From positions 186,001 to 250,000 of the forward strand of contig NW_026853081.1 of the NCBI RefSeq assembly GCF_026571515.1: a stretch of 64,000 nt of DNA, written 5' to 3'. Positions 39,001 to 44,638 of the stretch are shown piece after piece. A program made the position numbers. Source of the DNA: Ruditapes philippinarum. Taxonomy: Eukaryota. Position 1 is the first letter of the stretch; the number at the start of each line of letters is the position of its first letter.

Positions 39001-42000
39001 TAGATATTCTAAATAATAGATTAATGAATATTTTTGAAGATTCAGGGGTGATGAACAGTATTTGAATTCTTTACTGCTTGTAAGGAGGCATAATGTCTGG
39101 TACAATTTTTTGAAACACACTTTTATCCAAGTAAAATAAAGTTGAAATGTCCAATTTGGAAAGTCATAGATATACTATGATGCAGATATTACCAGTAATG
39201 ATACAAATTTGTTTAAATTGTAAACAGAAAAAGGTACTTTGAACATGTAACGTCGTTGTATTTAGAAAAATAACCTTGACTGTTATGTTATAGACATAAT
39301 CTCTTTCATACATAGCTGCTATAATAATATAATAAAATAATCTCTTGTCATTATCATTATTACAGGCCAAATGATGACCATACTAAATGCACAGATGACA
39401 CTTTATTTTACGTAAATGGCGTACGGATATTTCAATGTTTGAAAACCATTTCAAATGAAGGCACGCATATTTATAACACAGCTATAAACATAACTGGTTT
39501 TGTAACTAACATGACGGTGTCATTCAAGGAAACGCTTCCAAAGATGTTTTGGATTACAATAAAAGGTACGAATATATATTATTTACAAGTTGAAATTTAA
39601 GTTTAATTTAATAGAATATTCCCGATCAAGATGTTTACTCTCAATTTCATAAAGTCAATTCAGTATATATATCTAATAACAAATGTAAAGACTTTGGAAT
39701 CATATGGTGAATAATAAGTCCACTATTAAAGTCTGTCAAGAAATAAATAAGATTTAATCAGATCTAATTTACCATTTGTTAAAACGGTTTGGTTAGACAA
39801 TTTTGTTTAATTGTTATGTTTTATATTATACATTTATACCAACATAAAATTAGCTAACCATAAAATTATTTATCTTACTCTATGAATATTGTTATTTTTC
39901 AATTTGTCGATTTAATAACAATTGTAAAACATCGTAAAATTTAAGAAGCACAACTCATGTGTGGTACACATATTACTTTAATTGCATAAATACAAATAAC
40001 TGCAGTTGAAAAAATCTCAAAAACCTATTAATGATCAAGAACATGATTCTGATAATATTTCCGGTTGAGCATTTGCTGGGAAAGTTAAAACCTTTGAGAA
40101 AAGACTATCTGTTATCAAAGACCACAATCTTAGATATACTCTTAATATAACCATTAGTCTGAATGAAAGTAATAAAAAAAAATCTGCTTATAAGAGCTTT
40201 ATAAATCATCACAGAAATTGTATTTTCATTTGAATGTATTCTTTTTCTTTCACAAAAAGGTGCCAACGTACTAGTTCAGTGCAATATTGTAAACAGCGCC
40301 ATCAGCCGATATACAAGTGTGCCAACATCTGTTGGAAATACAGACACATCACTAAACTCTCAAGAAAAAGCAAGTCATTTACCATCCGGTGGCATGGCAC
40401 AAACAACTCGACACACAGAAAAGTCAGGTAAATGACGACTGCGTCTAATTGAATAACATTCGATACTTTATATATTCTGTGATTATTTTTAATTTTTACT
40501 TTATTATCTATAATATCTTCATTTATTGTTTATAATTCAACATGAACTTGTGGATATTACTTACTTTAAAATTATAACACTTTATAACGATTTATGTGAT
40601 GAGAAGACATTTAAAACTCTTCTTTTTATTACATCTATAATCTTTAATATCAAAATTACTTCCTTGATTTACAGTTTCATTTATTACTATATCAATGCAT
40701 GGTTAACTCATGCAGTCATACATGAGAGTAATTGAAATAGTGACGCACGTAATTTAAATACCGTGTACTTAGACCGATTTATTAAAGGATATACTTTCTG
40801 TATGAATAAGGATCGTTTTAAAACTCAAAGCGTTTTATATCTATTCCAGTCAGTTCAGAAGTATTTACAACACCAGCTATAATCGGAGCAACTGTAGCAG
40901 TTGTAACATTTATGGGTATTATTGCAGTTGTTGTTTGGCTATATCGCAGGTAACCCTAATACCATATTAGCATACTTAATTTATACGACACATATTTATT
41001 TTACTTTTTCTTTGTTTTGATTATTTCAAATCATATGAAGAAGTTTGGAAATGCCCATTAGGACAAAGAAATGCTTGATTTTTTTTCTTCAAAAGCTTTT
41101 CATTTTTGTTGCCCTGTTGATTTCTAGAGAAAAAAATAAATTAAATAAATAAATAAATAAACAACCGTTTACCTACATAGTAATACGGTTAGTATAGCTA
41201 ATATTGATTTGGTATTTTAATTAATTGAAGTCAAAATACTACTAAGTTTACAGTTTGCTTCTCTTGTAAGTCAAAAAATTTCACATAAAGCACTACTGTC
41301 TAAGTGATAAGCGTCTAACATGCCCTAAAAGCATGAATTAAACAATATAAAAATTATATTTTCCATTCTTTAGAAAGAACGATTTTTTTTCTGAGGCAAA
41401 ATATGCCTTTAATCAGATCTCTTGTGAAAATGTAAAGATGCCATAAGTACTTCAAGCACAAATATGTCTCCAGTTTTAAAGGCTTATTCTGCCCCAGAAA
41501 TAATTTTATTTCTATTTCTCATTAGCTTTTTATATATATGTTTTTTATTTTTTGAATCCGGATATTGTTTCCAAAAATTTACTTATAGACCAAAAAGTTG
41601 AGCCATCTTTTTTTTCTGTTGTTCTTTGATTATAAGTACGGTTATGATTTAAAAACCATTATTCAAACGTTATTAAACTCATGCTTGGCCTTCTTAATGA
41701 AGGAAAATGTATTCGATTCTGAGGCAATTTGCCTTTTAGCCATTTTAACTTCAGAAAAACTTCTGTACAACAAAAACCCGAAGTTACTGAAGCTGTATAC
41801 TACAATGAAGGACACATTAATGGTGAATGCAGAGACGGTGGTAAAGGTGACAACGAGAATAATCTCTCTAAAAATAAAGTTGACAATCTATACATAAATG
41901 CGCCAAGTGCACCAGGACACGATAATGTAGAGAACATAGATAATGTTTACTTAAATGAAAATATGAAAGATTCACCTATTGCTGGGTCAAACAAAGGTGA

Positions 42001-44638
42001 ACAAACGAATGCAAGGAAAAGAGACAAAAATAAAACCAGAGAACACAATAATCAAGATACCCATTACAATGTTCTAGGAACTCCAGGGGAAGAACACACC
42101 TATTCGGAGTTAAATTGCTCTGGTGGAGACAAACATGCATATTACAATTTAGTTAAGACATAATTATCAGATGAATACGATTTATTAGTAATCTTTGACG
42201 AGAAGTTTGATAATGATACTGAGTTTTCTTTCTGACAGCTACCAGTATACTTTTCAAAATGATAACATAACTAAGGAGCGCTTATTCCAATATAAATTAT
42301 GGAAATATCCAAATTAATACAACGGATAAGAGGAAACAAACGAAGATATTTATGACTTGAAATTTTAATGGAACCACATGACAACATAGTTTAATTTACA
42401 AAAAAAGCTTCTGAAATTACAATACATAGTTGAGTTTGTTTAAAAGATGCAAAAGCAAATTCAATATTCATTTGGTCGATATTTATTCCTTTCTGTGTAT
42501 GTTTTTCGGATTCATCAGATTTCGTATAATCATAAATTGTTCGTGCAGAAAGAAATATTCAAATGCCTTGGTATACCATCAAAGACATGATGAGGACTAA
42601 ATTTTTATTAACTTGACTGAAATTAAACTTTGTATGATCTATCAAACACACAATATGAAACTTAATATCTTAACATTTAAAAATAATACTTACGAAGTGA
42701 TTTAGTACCAACTTACAAGGGTTGTAGAATATATGCTTAATATCACAATATTGCTCACTTACATTTCAATCACTTTCCTTTTGCTTCCTTATTAAATCAT
42801 CGTGCCAACCTTACTGGCGGTATGGATTGTTGTATTTACAATTATTGTTATCTAGTTTCGCTTTTACAGATAAGAAAACTACTGCCATTATATCTATACA
42901 ATACAAATTTCTTCTGATGATTTGAGCTTCATTGTTACATAAAGATGACATAAACTGTGAGTTGTTTACTTTTTTATATTGAAATGGTTAGAATAAATGA
43001 TTTTGATCATTTTAGTTCTGCTGTAAGTTTACAGCATTCAGATATAAAAACATATAGTGAAATTTAATTAATAAGCCATTTATTTCAATGGTAGGATACT
43101 ACGTCATCTCGCACCTACAAAATGCTCTAAAACGGACTGCTTTTTTCGTGTAAACATTAGTCGATTAGAAGGTAAAATATATTTTTATTTTAAGAAATTG
43201 TTAGAATATCAACAAATAATGTAGCCCACCAAAGATTTGCCTTTAATTTAGTACTGCCAATTATTAAAAAAAAAACAACAACAGAAAAACGTTCTACTGC
43301 CTAGTTAAGTCCTGAAAACGGGATAAAGTTGTTTGTTTCCTAGATGCTCTCACTCAGACTCCTAAAAAATAATCCCGTTTTCAGGCTATAACCAGACATA
43401 ACTGTCATTATAACTCAGCTATATCAAAACACGAACTTGAAACACCATCTAGGCATTTTTATTTTTGAATGGGTATATGGAAATCTGTTATATATGTTAC
43501 GGTTATTTAATGATATAATCTAAGCTATTGATGCTATATTTAATAATAAATGTACAAAAAATACAAGGTTTTATGTTATTTTAAATTTTCAAAAATGTAC
43601 ACCCTCAGTAAAAAAATACCATGCCAAAGATGTTAGCATATACAACAATGTCTGTTAATATAGATATAACAAAAACATAACACAAATAAATTCATGAAAT
43701 AGTTTCCTGTTAAGTCAGAGTAAGGATAATTAAAAATGGATTGTAATCTAGCCTTTTGTCACTCAGAGTCTTGACAAATATATCCTATTATTGTCCGTGC
43801 ATGATAAAAATCGAAAACTAAATTGTTGTTTTCAAAGATGATATGTTCTGTTTTTCTATATTTATTTTATACAAAAGCACGTTAAATTTGTGTTTGCTTA
43901 TGCTAATTTAGAAATCTTAATACTTGTTATTCTAAGACATAATCTAAAAGCTTTAGCAATGTTTAAATTGAACGCTCAAGATTTTTATTTTGCCATGACA
44001 AGACCTTTCAATTTTCATCTGTTTTGTGTAGGATCGGAAGAACTTTATCATAGAGAACATTTGCATACATTGTATAAAGTTAACACGAGGTTAACTGTTA
44101 TGATTATATTTATAATCAACAAACTACGACGACACATTAATAGCTGTTTAAAAATCTCCAACTTTTCAATTCTTCACAGCATCTGTTTATATTTTTTAAC
44201 TCACAGTTTGTGTTTGTTATACATAAACGATGTATTCCCGGGTTCGGGAAGATATCGTATGCTTGATACTTTCGTTTGAAGACATACGTTGGAGTCTTGA
44301 ACTTGCCTGCAATTAAATAGTAAAATTTTAAAATCAAAATTCAATTTAAAGATCAGTATTACACGGAAACAGCAACATTATAAACATTAAAAGGCAATTA
44401 AATACTGACATATTGACATATTTGTTTATTCTTTTTTTTCAATTTTTAATAGGAGATATTAAAATAAGAAATAATTCGTTATCAAAAAATGTAATTACCG
44501 TTTTTTACGTGACCCTTTGCAACACACGAAGTAACAAAGAAGAACTGAGGCAACAACAACAACAAGAGCACATCCAATAGCGATTCCTATAATCATTTCT
44601 GTAGTCATTTGTGAATCTACCTCTACACAGGTACCTGA

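What the first reader, a model, noticed from the sequence alone, without database searches (positions are those of the whole stretch)
41755..42163. R5 tail: consensus ITAM YNVL-x8-YSEL, a third YYNL and four YxN motifs
Seen: YNVL(GTPGEEHT)YSEL at 42065-42112 fits YxxL-x6-8-YxxL, with YYNL 9 residues later. YYN, YIN, YLN and YYN match the Grb2-SH2 consensus. The exon has the same phase-2 junction (RR|K) as the R1-R3 tail exons but no alignable sequence. Inference: signalling polarity was switched by replacing or rapidly remodelling one terminal exon.
Basis: partly seen in the sequence, partly recalled or inferred. Interest (0 to 1): 0.75.

Follow-up and report, generated by a model that had tools for sequence, protein, structure and literature searches.

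The report
ITAM-like tail on lectin-like receptor paralogue
The last exon of one divergent member of a tandem family of lectin-like membrane receptors in an AT-rich invertebrate-type genome encodes a short tyrosine-rich tail that fits the classic immune "activation motif", a plausible but untested docking site for signalling kinases.

Summary
Window 41755-42163 is an open terminal exon of 135 codons plus a stop, with a canonical AG acceptor. It encodes DTH-YNVL-x8-YSEL (42056-42112), YYNL nine residues later, and four YxN motifs.

The exon closes an apparently intact type-I receptor gene (R5). Its parts are a SUEL/rhamnose-binding-lectin-like domain, a second beta-rich domain, a Ser/Thr-rich stalk, a transmembrane exon and the tail. 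The phase-2 RR|K junction matches paralogues R1-R3.

The ITAM pattern is moderately above chance: 0.55% of 100,000 tail shuffles, and 0.09% with the acidic -3 residue. However, the bare pattern also occurs six times in non-coding six-frame ORFs of this AT-rich window.

The R5 tail cannot be aligned to the R1-R3 tails by any test, while its ectodomain exons align clearly (z 7-12). Because the R1-R3 tails evolve fast (dN/dS 0.32-0.41), ordinary divergence may explain this, and exon replacement is not shown.

A "polarity switch" is not supported. The R1-R3 tails are multi-tyrosine scaffolds (all 14 Tyr invariant, P=7e-6), and their single ITIM-pattern match is at chance level.

Orthologue conservation, expression and SH2 binding could not be tested. 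I rate it a new variant of a known kind, of moderate interest.

The parts
36336..36369 (+). Candidate signal-peptide exon of R5 (MKLFLMLIYIT plus 1 base, donor CAG|GTAGGT). Tentative.
   Evidence: an ATG-started hydrophobic ORF ending in phase 1 at a GT. It resembles the R1 6807-6861, R2 13084-13138 and R3 24827-24857 first exons. There is no RNA evidence.
37759..38121 (+). R5 exon encoding a SUEL/rhamnose-binding-lectin-like domain with 8 invariant Cys.
   Evidence: AG/GT borders. Pfam SUEL_Lectin E=0.041, below the cut-off. A profile of the 4 paralogues hits the PDB LAT-1 lectin domain 8suf_E at E=7e-4. AF2 pLDDT is 63.5. Foldseek ranks 1-13 are latrophilin Lec / RBL structures. The 8 invariant Cys are seen.
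38446..38602 (+). R5 second-domain exon, N-terminal half (..NIVDY, ends AG| in phase 2).
   Evidence: tblastn of the R1-R3 second-domain exons gives E 6e-7 to 8e-5. AG/GT borders.
39366..39565 (+). R5 second-domain exon, C-terminal half. The domain is split by an intron that R1-R3 lack.
   Evidence: tblastn E 1.6e-8 to 5e-6. Borders AG/GT, and the split falls inside the Arg codon of DYRP. z = 8.3-9.4 against shuffles.
40260..40427 (+). R5 Ser/Thr-rich stalk exon.
   Evidence: The donor GT is at 40428-40429 as read. One search used 40428 by mistake. With 40427 the six exons plus 1 base sum to 1398 nt, which is 466 codons.
40850..40949 (+). R5 transmembrane exon (..PAIIGATVAVVTFMGIIAVVVWLYR, ending AG| in phase 2).
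   Evidence: Hydrophobicity scan, sequence and AG/GT borders. It has the same entry and exit phases as the 109-nt R1-R3 transmembrane exons. BLASTP finds no alignment. Global score z = 3.2-5.0.
41755..42163 (+). R5 terminal exon: a 135-residue cytoplasmic tail plus the TAA stop. This is the finding.
42056..42112 (+). ITAM consensus DTH-YNVL-GTPGEEHT-YSEL.
42140..42151 (+). Third YxxL (YYNL). With YSEL it forms a second, overlapping Yxx[LI]-x9-Yxx[LI]. It is also a YxN.
41798..41956 (+). Span holding three YxN motifs: YYN 41798-41806, YIN 41891-41899 and YLN 41948-41956. The latter two sit in near-repeated heptads VDNLYIN and IDNVYLN.
41802..41820 (+). 19-nt patch that is 18/19 identical to the R1 tail exon at 10318-10336, read in a different frame in R5.
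   Evidence: 26 of 1500 dinucleotide shuffles reach the score, so it is unresolved.
10179..10944 (+). R1 tail exon (254 aa), used as comparator.
17860..18604 (+). R2 tail exon (247 aa), used as comparator.
29099..29876 (+). R3 tail exon (258 aa), used as comparator.
33400..34016 (+). R4: a broken remnant of an R1-R3-type tail exon, with in-frame stops and no ectodomain exons found upstream.
   Evidence: nhmmer E=6.6e-54, tblastn, sequence.

Best explanation
R5 is an intact but highly divergent member of a tandem cluster of single-pass receptors. Its parts are a SUEL/RBL-lectin-like domain, an unassigned beta-rich domain, a mucin-like stalk, a transmembrane helix and a disordered tyrosine-rich tail.

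Its short tail is a phosphotyrosine docking module, proposed to work in three steps.
- Ligand-driven clustering lets a Src-type kinase phosphorylate the C-terminal pair Y104/Y116 (DTHYNVL-x8-YSEL).
- The doubly phosphorylated pair recruits a tandem-SH2 kinase of the Syk/Shark type. Y129/130 (YYNL) provides an overlapping second pair.
- The upstream YxN sites recruit a Grb2/Drk-type adaptor.

This is the same logic as Drosophila Draper and oyster CgIgR.

Shown here: the exon is coding, correctly phased and joined to a transmembrane exon; the motifs are present at canonical spacing; the family's tails are under tyrosine-specific constraint.

Inferred only: phosphorylation, the identity of the SH2 partners, and the activating outcome.

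The tail most likely arose by divergence or remodelling of the family's ancestral tail exon in place, since the acceptor phase and the RR|K junction are the same. It probably did not arise by import of a foreign exon, but this is not settled.
For: Gene model. Six consecutive R5 exons have AG/GT borders and compatible phases, summing to 466 codons. The tail frame has 0 stops against 17 and 8 in the other frames, and 1 of 20,000 dinucleotide shuffles stays open. A transmembrane helix lies immediately upstream.

Motifs. The ITAM appears in 0.55% of 100,000 shuffles, the [DE]xxY form in 0.09%, and ITAM plus four or more YxN in 0.01%. The [DE]xxY form is unique in the window's six-frame ORFs, 1 of 1. 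YxN is specific to R5: 4 sites, against 0, 0 and 1 in R1-R3.

Family context. All 14 tyrosines of the R1 tail are invariant in R1-R3 although only 113 of 254 positions are (hypergeometric P = 7e-6). Tyrosines are therefore what selection keeps in this family's tails.

Ectodomain. It is lectin-like, as in other Syk-coupled pattern receptors.

Precedent. Oyster CgIgR carries a classical ITAM and binds CgSyk (PMC6994640, passages). Oyster C-type lectin receptors with a hemITAM associate with Syk (PMC13027682, passages). Draper's ITAM binds Shark, and its non-ITAM tyrosines add to signalling (PMC6219719, passages). Hydractinia Alr tails hold ITAMs, some overlapping (PMC9546547, passages).
Against: The evidence is at motif level only.
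- The bare ITAM pattern occurs 6 further times in non-coding six-frame ORFs of this AT-rich window, about 1 per 3,100 aa.
- No Pfam family matches the tail at E up to 10, and no PDB chain does at E up to 10.
- No orthologue or second copy could be examined, so conservation of spacing and of the leucines is untested. There is no other copy in the window.
- There is no expression or splicing evidence, and the signal-peptide exon is only a candidate.
- A pseudogene remnant (R4) lies next door.
- It is unknown whether this organism has a Syk/Shark kinase; the species is unidentified.
Confidence: 0.4

Rival explanations
1. The tail is a general multi-phosphotyrosine scaffold, like the R1-R3 tails. 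Its tyrosines bind single-SH2 or PTB proteins (Src-family, Grb2/Drk, Shc, phosphatases). The ITAM spacing is a coincidence with no tandem-SH2 partner.
For: The R1-R3 tails carry 14-17 tyrosines in varied contexts (YEEV, YAEP, YSH[ITV] at an 18-20-residue period, EYDHL) with no canonical ITAM. In R5 every tyrosine has N, L or V nearby in an N-rich tail (21 N in 135 aa). The bare ITAM pattern is common in this genome's composition: 7 hits in 21,785 aa.
Against: The canonical spacing plus an acidic -3 residue occurs in only 0.09% of shuffles. Three YxxL motifs cluster in the last 33 residues at 12-13-residue intervals, and three or more Yxx[LI] occur in 1.3% of shuffles.
Confidence: 0.3
2. The C-terminal YxxL motifs are unphosphorylated Yxx-hydrophobic sorting signals. 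They would be recognised by clathrin adaptor mu subunits (recalled general knowledge), making R5 an endocytic or lysosome-directed lectin-like receptor rather than a kinase-coupled one.
For: YNVL, YSEL, YYNL and YNLV all fit Yxx-hydrophobic. The ectodomain is lectin-like, and many lectin receptors are endocytic (recalled). The motifs lie at the extreme C-terminus.
Against: This does not explain the 8- and 9-residue spacing, the acidic residues before each tyrosine, or the four YxN sites. Tyrosine-specific conservation in the sister tails suggests phosphorylation-type use. The two uses are not exclusive.
Confidence: 0.15
3. R5 is a silent or decaying duplicate. The tail is free-running sequence, and the motifs reflect Y/N/L-rich composition.
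For: R4 beside it is a broken remnant. R5 is the outlier of the family (26-37% ectodomain identity). Its second-domain exon is interrupted relative to R1-R3. There is no expression evidence, and the first exon is only a candidate.
Against: All six checked exons are open with canonical AG/GT borders, and phases add up to 466 codons. The interruption is a clean GT..AG intron inside one codon. 1 of 20,000 shuffles keeps the tail frame open. The 8 Cys of the lectin-like domain are all retained.
Confidence: 0.1

Closest known systems
Crassostrea gigas CgIgR (ITAM-bearing haemocyte receptor; PMC6994640, passages read)
   Same: An invertebrate type-I membrane receptor whose own cytoplasmic tail carries a classical [DE]xxYxx[LI]-x(6-12)-Yxx[LI]. 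It is reported to recruit Syk and activate ERK.
   Different: The CgIgR ectodomain is five Ig domains, whereas R5 has an RBL-like domain plus an unassigned beta domain. The CgIgR function was tested experimentally; R5's was not. Whether the window comes from a mollusc is unknown.
Drosophila Draper / CED-1 / MEGF10 engulfment receptors (PMC6219719, passages read)
   Same: A single-pass receptor with an ITAM in its own tail that binds a tandem-SH2 kinase (Shark). Extra non-ITAM tyrosines add to signalling. This matches R5's layout of an ITAM plus YxN sites.
   Different: The Draper ITAM tyrosines are Y934 and Y949, 15 residues apart, against 12 in R5. Draper's EMI/EGF-type ectodomain (recalled) has no counterpart in R5. 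There is no sequence relationship.
Oyster transmembrane C-type lectins CgCLec-TM1 / CgCLec-HTM and vertebrate Dectin-1 (review PMC13027682, passages read)
   Same: A lectin-type ectodomain directly coupled to a tyrosine motif in the tail that engages Syk.
   Different: Those are C-type lectin domains with a single-tyrosine hemITAM. R5 has an RBL-like fold and a full two-tyrosine motif. In that review the rhamnose-binding lectins listed are all secretory.
Hydractinia Alr gene family (PMC9546547, passages read) and vertebrate paired receptors such as dog CEACAM1/CEACAM28 (PMC2110893, abstract read)
   Same: Tandem clusters of receptor paralogues and pseudogenes whose tails differ in ITAM/ITIM content. 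Alr tails are too diverse to align and are more divergent than the ectodomains. Overlapping ITAMs occur.
   Different: Alr and CEACAM ectodomains are Ig-type. True paired receptors share near-identical ligand-binding domains (CEACAM28 against CEACAM1), whereas R5 is 26-37% identical to R1-R3. No clear inhibitory partner is seen here.
Latrophilin / LAT-1 lectin (RBL) domain (PDB 8suf, 5ftt, 6ske)
   Same: These are the best sequence-profile and fold matches of the R5/R1-R3 first domain. They share a framework of 8 cysteines.
   Different: Latrophilins are adhesion GPCRs; here the domain sits on a single-pass receptor. The similarity is remote: Pfam is below cut-off, E=7e-4 to PDB, and TM-scores are 0.42-0.57 on a model of pLDDT 63.5.

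Membership tests
ITAM (immunoreceptor tyrosine-based activation motif) | Two Yxx[LI] units separated by 6-8 residues | tested here: met
   YNVL-x8-YSEL at tail residues 104-119. Found in 0.55% of 100,000 shuffles.
ITAM (immunoreceptor tyrosine-based activation motif) | Acidic residue upstream of the first tyrosine ([DE]xxY) | tested here: met
   DTHY, and also EHTY before the second tyrosine. This is the only such match in the window's six-frame ORFs.
ITAM (immunoreceptor tyrosine-based activation motif) | Lies in the cytoplasmic tail of a membrane protein | tested here: met
   A transmembrane exon with RR stop-transfer lies directly upstream and is spliceable in frame. The topology is inferred from the lectin-like N-terminal exons; no RNA evidence.
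ITAM (immunoreceptor tyrosine-based activation motif) | Match to a curated profile of ITAM sequences | tested here: not met
   No Pfam-A family matched at E up to 10 for the whole tail or its last 41 residues. That Pfam holds an ITAM model is recalled, not checked. Short motifs rarely pass HMMER filters.
ITAM (immunoreceptor tyrosine-based activation motif) | Conservation of tyrosines, +3 Leu/Ile and spacing in orthologues | not tested
ITAM (immunoreceptor tyrosine-based activation motif) | Dual phosphorylation and binding by the tandem SH2 domains of a Syk/ZAP-70/Shark kinase | not testable with these tools
   No kinase of this organism is in the window. No complex job was run.
Grb2/Drk SH2 docking site (pYxN) | Asn at +2 of a tyrosine | tested here: met
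   4 sites. Four or more occur in 2.0% of shuffles. R1-R3 have 0, 0 and 1. The specificity rule is recalled, and binding was not tested.
SUEL / rhamnose-binding lectin (RBL) domain, Pfam PF02140 | Pfam model above the gathering score | tested here: not met
   R5 exon: 14.7 bits against a cut-off of 31.4, E=0.041. The R1 exon has no hit.
SUEL / rhamnose-binding lectin (RBL) domain, Pfam PF02140 | Profile or fold similarity to solved RBL domains | tested here: inconclusive
   The profile of 4 paralogues hits 8suf_E at E=7e-4 and 6ske_B at E=0.048. Foldseek ranks 1-13 are all RBL/latrophilin Lec structures, with E from 5e-3 to 0.18 and TM-scores 0.42-0.57, but the model's pLDDT is only 63.5.
SUEL / rhamnose-binding lectin (RBL) domain, Pfam PF02140 | Eight conserved half-cystines (feature recalled) | tested here: met
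   8 invariant Cys columns in the 4-paralogue alignment.
SUEL / rhamnose-binding lectin (RBL) domain, Pfam PF02140 | Sugar-binding signature motifs of RBLs (YGR, DPC, KYL; recalled) | tested here: not met
   None of these strings is seen in the alignment, by inspection only. Carbohydrate binding is therefore doubtful, and protein ligands (as for latrophilin) are possible.
Paired activating/inhibitory receptors | Near-identical ligand-binding domains on members with opposite tails | tested here: not met
   R5 against R1-R3: lectin exon 28-31% identity over aligned columns, second domain 32-37%.
Paired activating/inhibitory receptors | Partner tails carry ITIM/ITSM motifs above chance | tested here: inconclusive
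   There is one conserved SNYEEV in each of R1-R3, and R3 also has LSYHSV and TNYAKV. One or more ITIM-pattern matches arise in 31-39% of shuffles.
Paired activating/inhibitory receptors | Activating member has a short tail and a charged transmembrane residue that recruits an ITAM adaptor | tested here: not met
   The R5 transmembrane segment has no charged residue. The ITAM is in R5's own tail.

The most novel reading that the evidence does not exclude
The ITAM tail was born in place from the family's long multi-tyrosine tail exon. The route would be deletion plus a frame shift: a 19-nt patch that reads TMKDTL in R1 is read one frame over in R5, where it supplies part of the first YxN site.

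On this reading, a lectin-like receptor family that has nothing to do with Ig or C-type lectin receptors independently generated a canonical Syk-type activation module beside differently wired sisters. That would be an invertebrate, convergent version of receptor clusters with alternative signalling tails.
Probability: 0.08. Interest if true: 0.7.

Novelty: new variant of a known kind. Interest (0 to 1): 0.4.

Why it matters
ITAM signalling outside vertebrates is known from only a few receptors, such as Draper, oyster CgIgR and, by sequence motif so far, Hydractinia Alr, with Ig, EGF or C-type-lectin ectodomains. A canonical ITAM plus Grb2-type sites on a rhamnose-binding-lectin-like receptor would extend the list of ectodomains wired to this module.

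The cluster also has features that make it a compact case for study: sisters with 14 invariant tyrosines, one broken copy, and one short ITAM-type tail. It could show how tandem receptor families re-wire their cytoplasmic output.

The claim is cheap to test with peptide pull-downs, Y-to-F chimeras and orthologue comparison.

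Tried and rejected
- **Relatives elsewhere.** Orthologue conservation therefore stayed unchecked.
- **Pfam and PDB on the tail.** Pfam found nothing and the PDB sequence search found nothing.
- **R5 tail against R1-R3 tails.**
  - tblastn: best E 5.4 and 9.0.
  - nhmmer with a DNA profile of the three tail exons: E=79.
  - BLASTP: E=1.4.
  - hhalign: E=0.19, probability 0.3%.
  - Protein profile HMM against all three frames of 41755-42600: all scores negative.
  - Smith-Waterman against shuffles: p from 0.016 to 0.44 depending on paralogue and mode.
  - Three tail segments under three gap settings: p 0.11-0.95.
  - Global identity 40-42, against 38-39 in shuffles.
- **Resemblances seen by eye.** These were DN[LIV]Y, CSG between the second and third tyrosine, T..R.RD..K, and a terminal Y..L as MAFFT aligned them. 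I reject them as evidence because they do not beat shuffles.
- **Semi-global DNA test.** It was badly designed: free end gaps gave scores of 2-11, and one 'control' region gave z=4.2. It is discarded.
- **Tandem duplication as the source of the three YxxL units.** Tandem Repeats Finder found nothing in 41700-42250.
- **'The tail is the slowest-evolving part, so its loss of similarity needs replacement.'** Rejected: tail dN/dS is 0.32-0.41, higher than the lectin exon, and dS is lower in the 3' exons.
- **Second ectodomain domain.** The AF2 model had pLDDT 42.7, so no fold search was run. The PDB profile search gave only chance-level hits.
- **RNA searches.** Rfam and the tRNA scan found nothing.
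- **Complex prediction.** Not used, because no tandem-SH2 kinase sequence of this organism was available.
- **Joined R5 protein.** It was not assembled, searched or folded. All searches were exon by exon.

Full report
**What the window is.**
The window is AT-rich, 27-38% G+C in all but one of its 2-kb bins; the exception, at 23%, is lowered by a run of N. Its genes are split by introns with GT..AG borders. I do not take it for human; it looks like an invertebrate metazoan genome. Two runs of N (490 N in all) lie outside the gene in question and were left untouched.

**The observation.**
- Translating 41756-42163 gives a 135-residue peptide ending in TAA.
- It contains DTH-YNVL-GTPGEEHT-YSEL (42056-42112), then nine residues, then YYNL (42140-42151).
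- The four YxN motifs are at 41798, 41891, 41948 and 42140.
- The exon begins at 41755 behind an AG. A second AG 15 nt upstream would keep the same frame.

**The gene it belongs to.**
- Upstream lies a 100-nt exon (40850-40949) encoding a hydrophobic helix followed by YR and the first two bases of a second Arg codon. The junction therefore reads RR|K in phase 2.
- R1, R2 and R3 have 109-nt transmembrane exons with the same entry and exit phases and the same RR|K junction into their tail exons.
- Further upstream, R5 has these exons:

| Exon | Coordinates |
|---|---|
| Ser/Thr-rich stalk | 40260-40427 |
| Second domain, C-terminal half | 39366-39565 |
| Second domain, N-terminal half | 38446-38602 |
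| Lectin-like domain | 37759-38121 |

- All have AG/GT borders and compatible phases.
- In one search I entered the stalk end as 40428. The sequence shows it is 40427. With that correction the six exons plus one base from an upstream exon make 1398 nt, which is 466 codons.
- A candidate signal-peptide exon lies at 36336-36369. It is recognised only by resemblance to the R1-R3 first exons.
- R1-R3 encode the second domain on one exon. In R5 a clean intron splits it inside the Arg codon of the conserved DYRP.
Every search was exon by exon.

**What kind of receptor.**
- *First domain.* It is SUEL/rhamnose-binding-lectin-like.
  - Pfam SUEL_Lectin matches weakly (E=0.041, below the cut-off).
  - A profile of the four paralogous exons finds the C. 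elegans LAT-1 and human latrophilin lectin domains in the PDB (E=7e-4 and 0.048).
  - An AlphaFold model of moderate confidence (pLDDT 63.5) has latrophilin Lec and fish or urchin RBL structures as its Foldseek ranks 1-13, with TM-scores 0.42-0.57.
  - Eight cysteines are invariant.
  - The sugar-binding signatures I recall for RBLs are not visible in that alignment, so the ligand may not be a sugar.
- *Second domain.* It is predicted to be all-beta, but the model is unusable (pLDDT 42.7), and no family was found.

**Is the motif more than chance?**
- Within the tail's own composition, yes, moderately:

| Pattern | Share of 100,000 shuffles |
|---|---|
| Minimal ITAM | 0.55% |
| ITAM with an acidic residue at -3 | 0.09% |
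| Three or more Yxx[LI] | 1.3% |
| Four or more YxN | 2.0% |
| ITAM plus four or more YxN | 0.01% |

- Against the genome's background the minimal pattern is cheap. It occurs 7 times in 21,785 residues of six-frame ORFs, six of them in obviously non-coding ORFs. The fuller form occurs only in R5.
- The exon is kept open. It has no stop, against 17 and 8 in the other frames, and 1 of 20,000 dinucleotide shuffles stays open.

**The sister tails.**
- The R1-R3 tails are 247-258 residues long and 61-63% identical over aligned columns.
- All 14 tyrosines of R1 are invariant, while only 113 of 254 positions are (P=7e-6). Selection in this family's tails therefore acts on tyrosines, which raises the prior that R5's tyrosine motifs matter.
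- Their motifs are SNYEEV, YAEP, four YSH[ITV]-type units spaced 18-20 residues apart (including YSHI-x14-YSHI in R1 and R2) and a terminal EYDHL.
- They have no canonical ITAM and 0, 0 and 1 YxN.
- Their one ITIM-pattern match (SNYEEV) is conserved, but such a match arises in 31-39% of shuffles. Nothing shows that these tails are inhibitory.

**Origin of the R5 tail.**
- No method aligns it to the R1-R3 tails.
- The same global-alignment test gives z = 7.0-11.8 for the lectin exon, 8.3-9.4 for the second-domain half and 3.2-5.0 for the transmembrane exon, against 0.5-1.4 for the tail. BLASTP, however, finds no alignment for the transmembrane exon.
- I first thought this discordance argued for replacement, because the tail is among the best-conserved parts among R1-R3.
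- removes that argument. The tail's dN/dS (0.32-0.41) is higher than that of the lectin exon (0.20-0.28). Its higher identity comes from lower dS in the 3' exons (0.52-0.66, against 1.4-2.5), which may reflect gene conversion or a mosaic history.
- At R5's distance a disordered, indel-tolerant tail would be expected to fall to noise.
- The Hydractinia Alr family shows the same behaviour: tails too diverse to align and more divergent than the ectodomains (PMC9546547, passages).
- The conserved acceptor phase and RR|K junction favour change in place, but do not prove it.
- One oddity remains. Nineteen bases at 41802-41820 are 18/19 identical to the R1 tail exon at 10318-10336.
  - There they encode TMKDTL; in R5 they are read in another frame as part of YNEGHIN.
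  - R2 and R3 differ at that spot.
  - 26 of 1500 dinucleotide shuffles reach the same score.
  - It is a hint of a frame-shift origin or a micro-conversion, and no more.

**How it most likely works.**
- By analogy with Draper, CgIgR and vertebrate immunoreceptors, clustering would lead to Src-type phosphorylation of Y104 and Y116.
- A tandem-SH2 kinase would then dock. YYNL offers an overlapping second pair (x9 spacing, inside the 6-9 and 6-12 ranges used in PMC9546547 and PMC6994640), and the YxN sites would recruit a Grb2/Drk adaptor.
- None of these steps is shown here.
- The main rivals are a generic phosphotyrosine scaffold in which the ITAM spacing is accidental, tyrosine-based sorting signals, and a silent duplicate.

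**Comparison and novelty.**
- ITAM-bearing invertebrate receptors are in print with Ig (CgIgR, Alr), EGF-type (Draper) and C-type-lectin (hemITAM) ectodomains.
- I found no description of an RBL/SUEL-type membrane receptor with an ITAM.
  - The search 'rhamnose-binding lectin' + transmembrane + 'cytoplasmic tail' + ITAM was run asking for at least 3 of the 4 terms. It matched 1,477 papers, of which 15 were listed. Only one of the 15 holds all four terms: a review that lists RBLs as secretory.
  - The search SUEL + 'immunoreceptor tyrosine-based' gave 13 papers; none of the 10 listed is on the subject by title or abstract.
  - These searches cover only the held open-access library, and supplements were closed.
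- I therefore rate it a new variant of a known kind, resting on motif-level evidence.

**Verdict.**
The functional reading is plausible (about 0.4). 'Replaced or remodelled' cannot be decided. 'Polarity switch' is not supported.

Noticed in passing
window 10179-10944, 17860-18604, 29099-29876: The R1-R3 tails keep all 14 tyrosines of R1 invariant although only 113 of 254 positions are invariant (P=7e-6). They hold four YSH[ITV]-type units spaced 18-20 residues apart, plus SNYEEV, YAEP and a terminal EYDHL. This multi-tyrosine scaffold is arguably as interesting as the R5 tail.
   Followed up: partly
window 33400-34016 and 35235-35378: R4 is a remnant of an R1-R3-type tail exon (nhmmer E=6.6e-54 and 5e-4) with in-frame stops. 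No lectin or second-domain exons were found upstream of it by tblastn.
   Followed up: partly
window 38603-39365: R5 has a 763-nt GT..AG intron inside the second ectodomain domain, within the Arg codon of DYRP. R1-R3 lack it, so this is an intron gain in R5 or a loss in the others.
   Followed up: partly
window 41802-41820 vs 10318-10336: A 19-nt patch is 18/19 identical between the R5 and R1 tail exons but is read in different frames. 26 of 1500 dinucleotide shuffles reach the score. Its origin is unexplained.
   Followed up: partly
window 7417-7782 / 13462-13824 / 26032-26391 vs downstream exons: Among R1-R3, synonymous divergence is much higher in the lectin exon (dS 1.4-2.5) than in the second-domain, transmembrane and tail exons (0.5-1.2). 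This suggests a mosaic history or gene conversion of the 3' halves.
   Followed up: no
window 17517-17640; also 59192-59312, 2612-2676, 11043-11116, 2445-2515: An interspersed repeat lies in the R2 intron between the transmembrane and tail exons, with four partial copies elsewhere in the window (76-83% identity). ARAGORN and Rfam call no tRNA there.
   Followed up: partly
window 110-526, minus strand: This ORF has weak similarity to the N-terminal half of the family's second domain (tblastn E 0.02-1.3). It may be another, inverted family member at the window edge.
   Followed up: no
window ~45249-50635, minus strand: A neighbouring gene on the other strand has EGF-like exons (weak Pfam hits) and a von Willebrand type D exon (PF00094, E=2.4e-7, 50417-50635).
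   Followed up: no
window 41738-41739: An alternative AG acceptor lies 15 nt upstream of the modelled one. It keeps the tail frame and would add five residues and change RR|K to RS..FRK.
   Followed up: no
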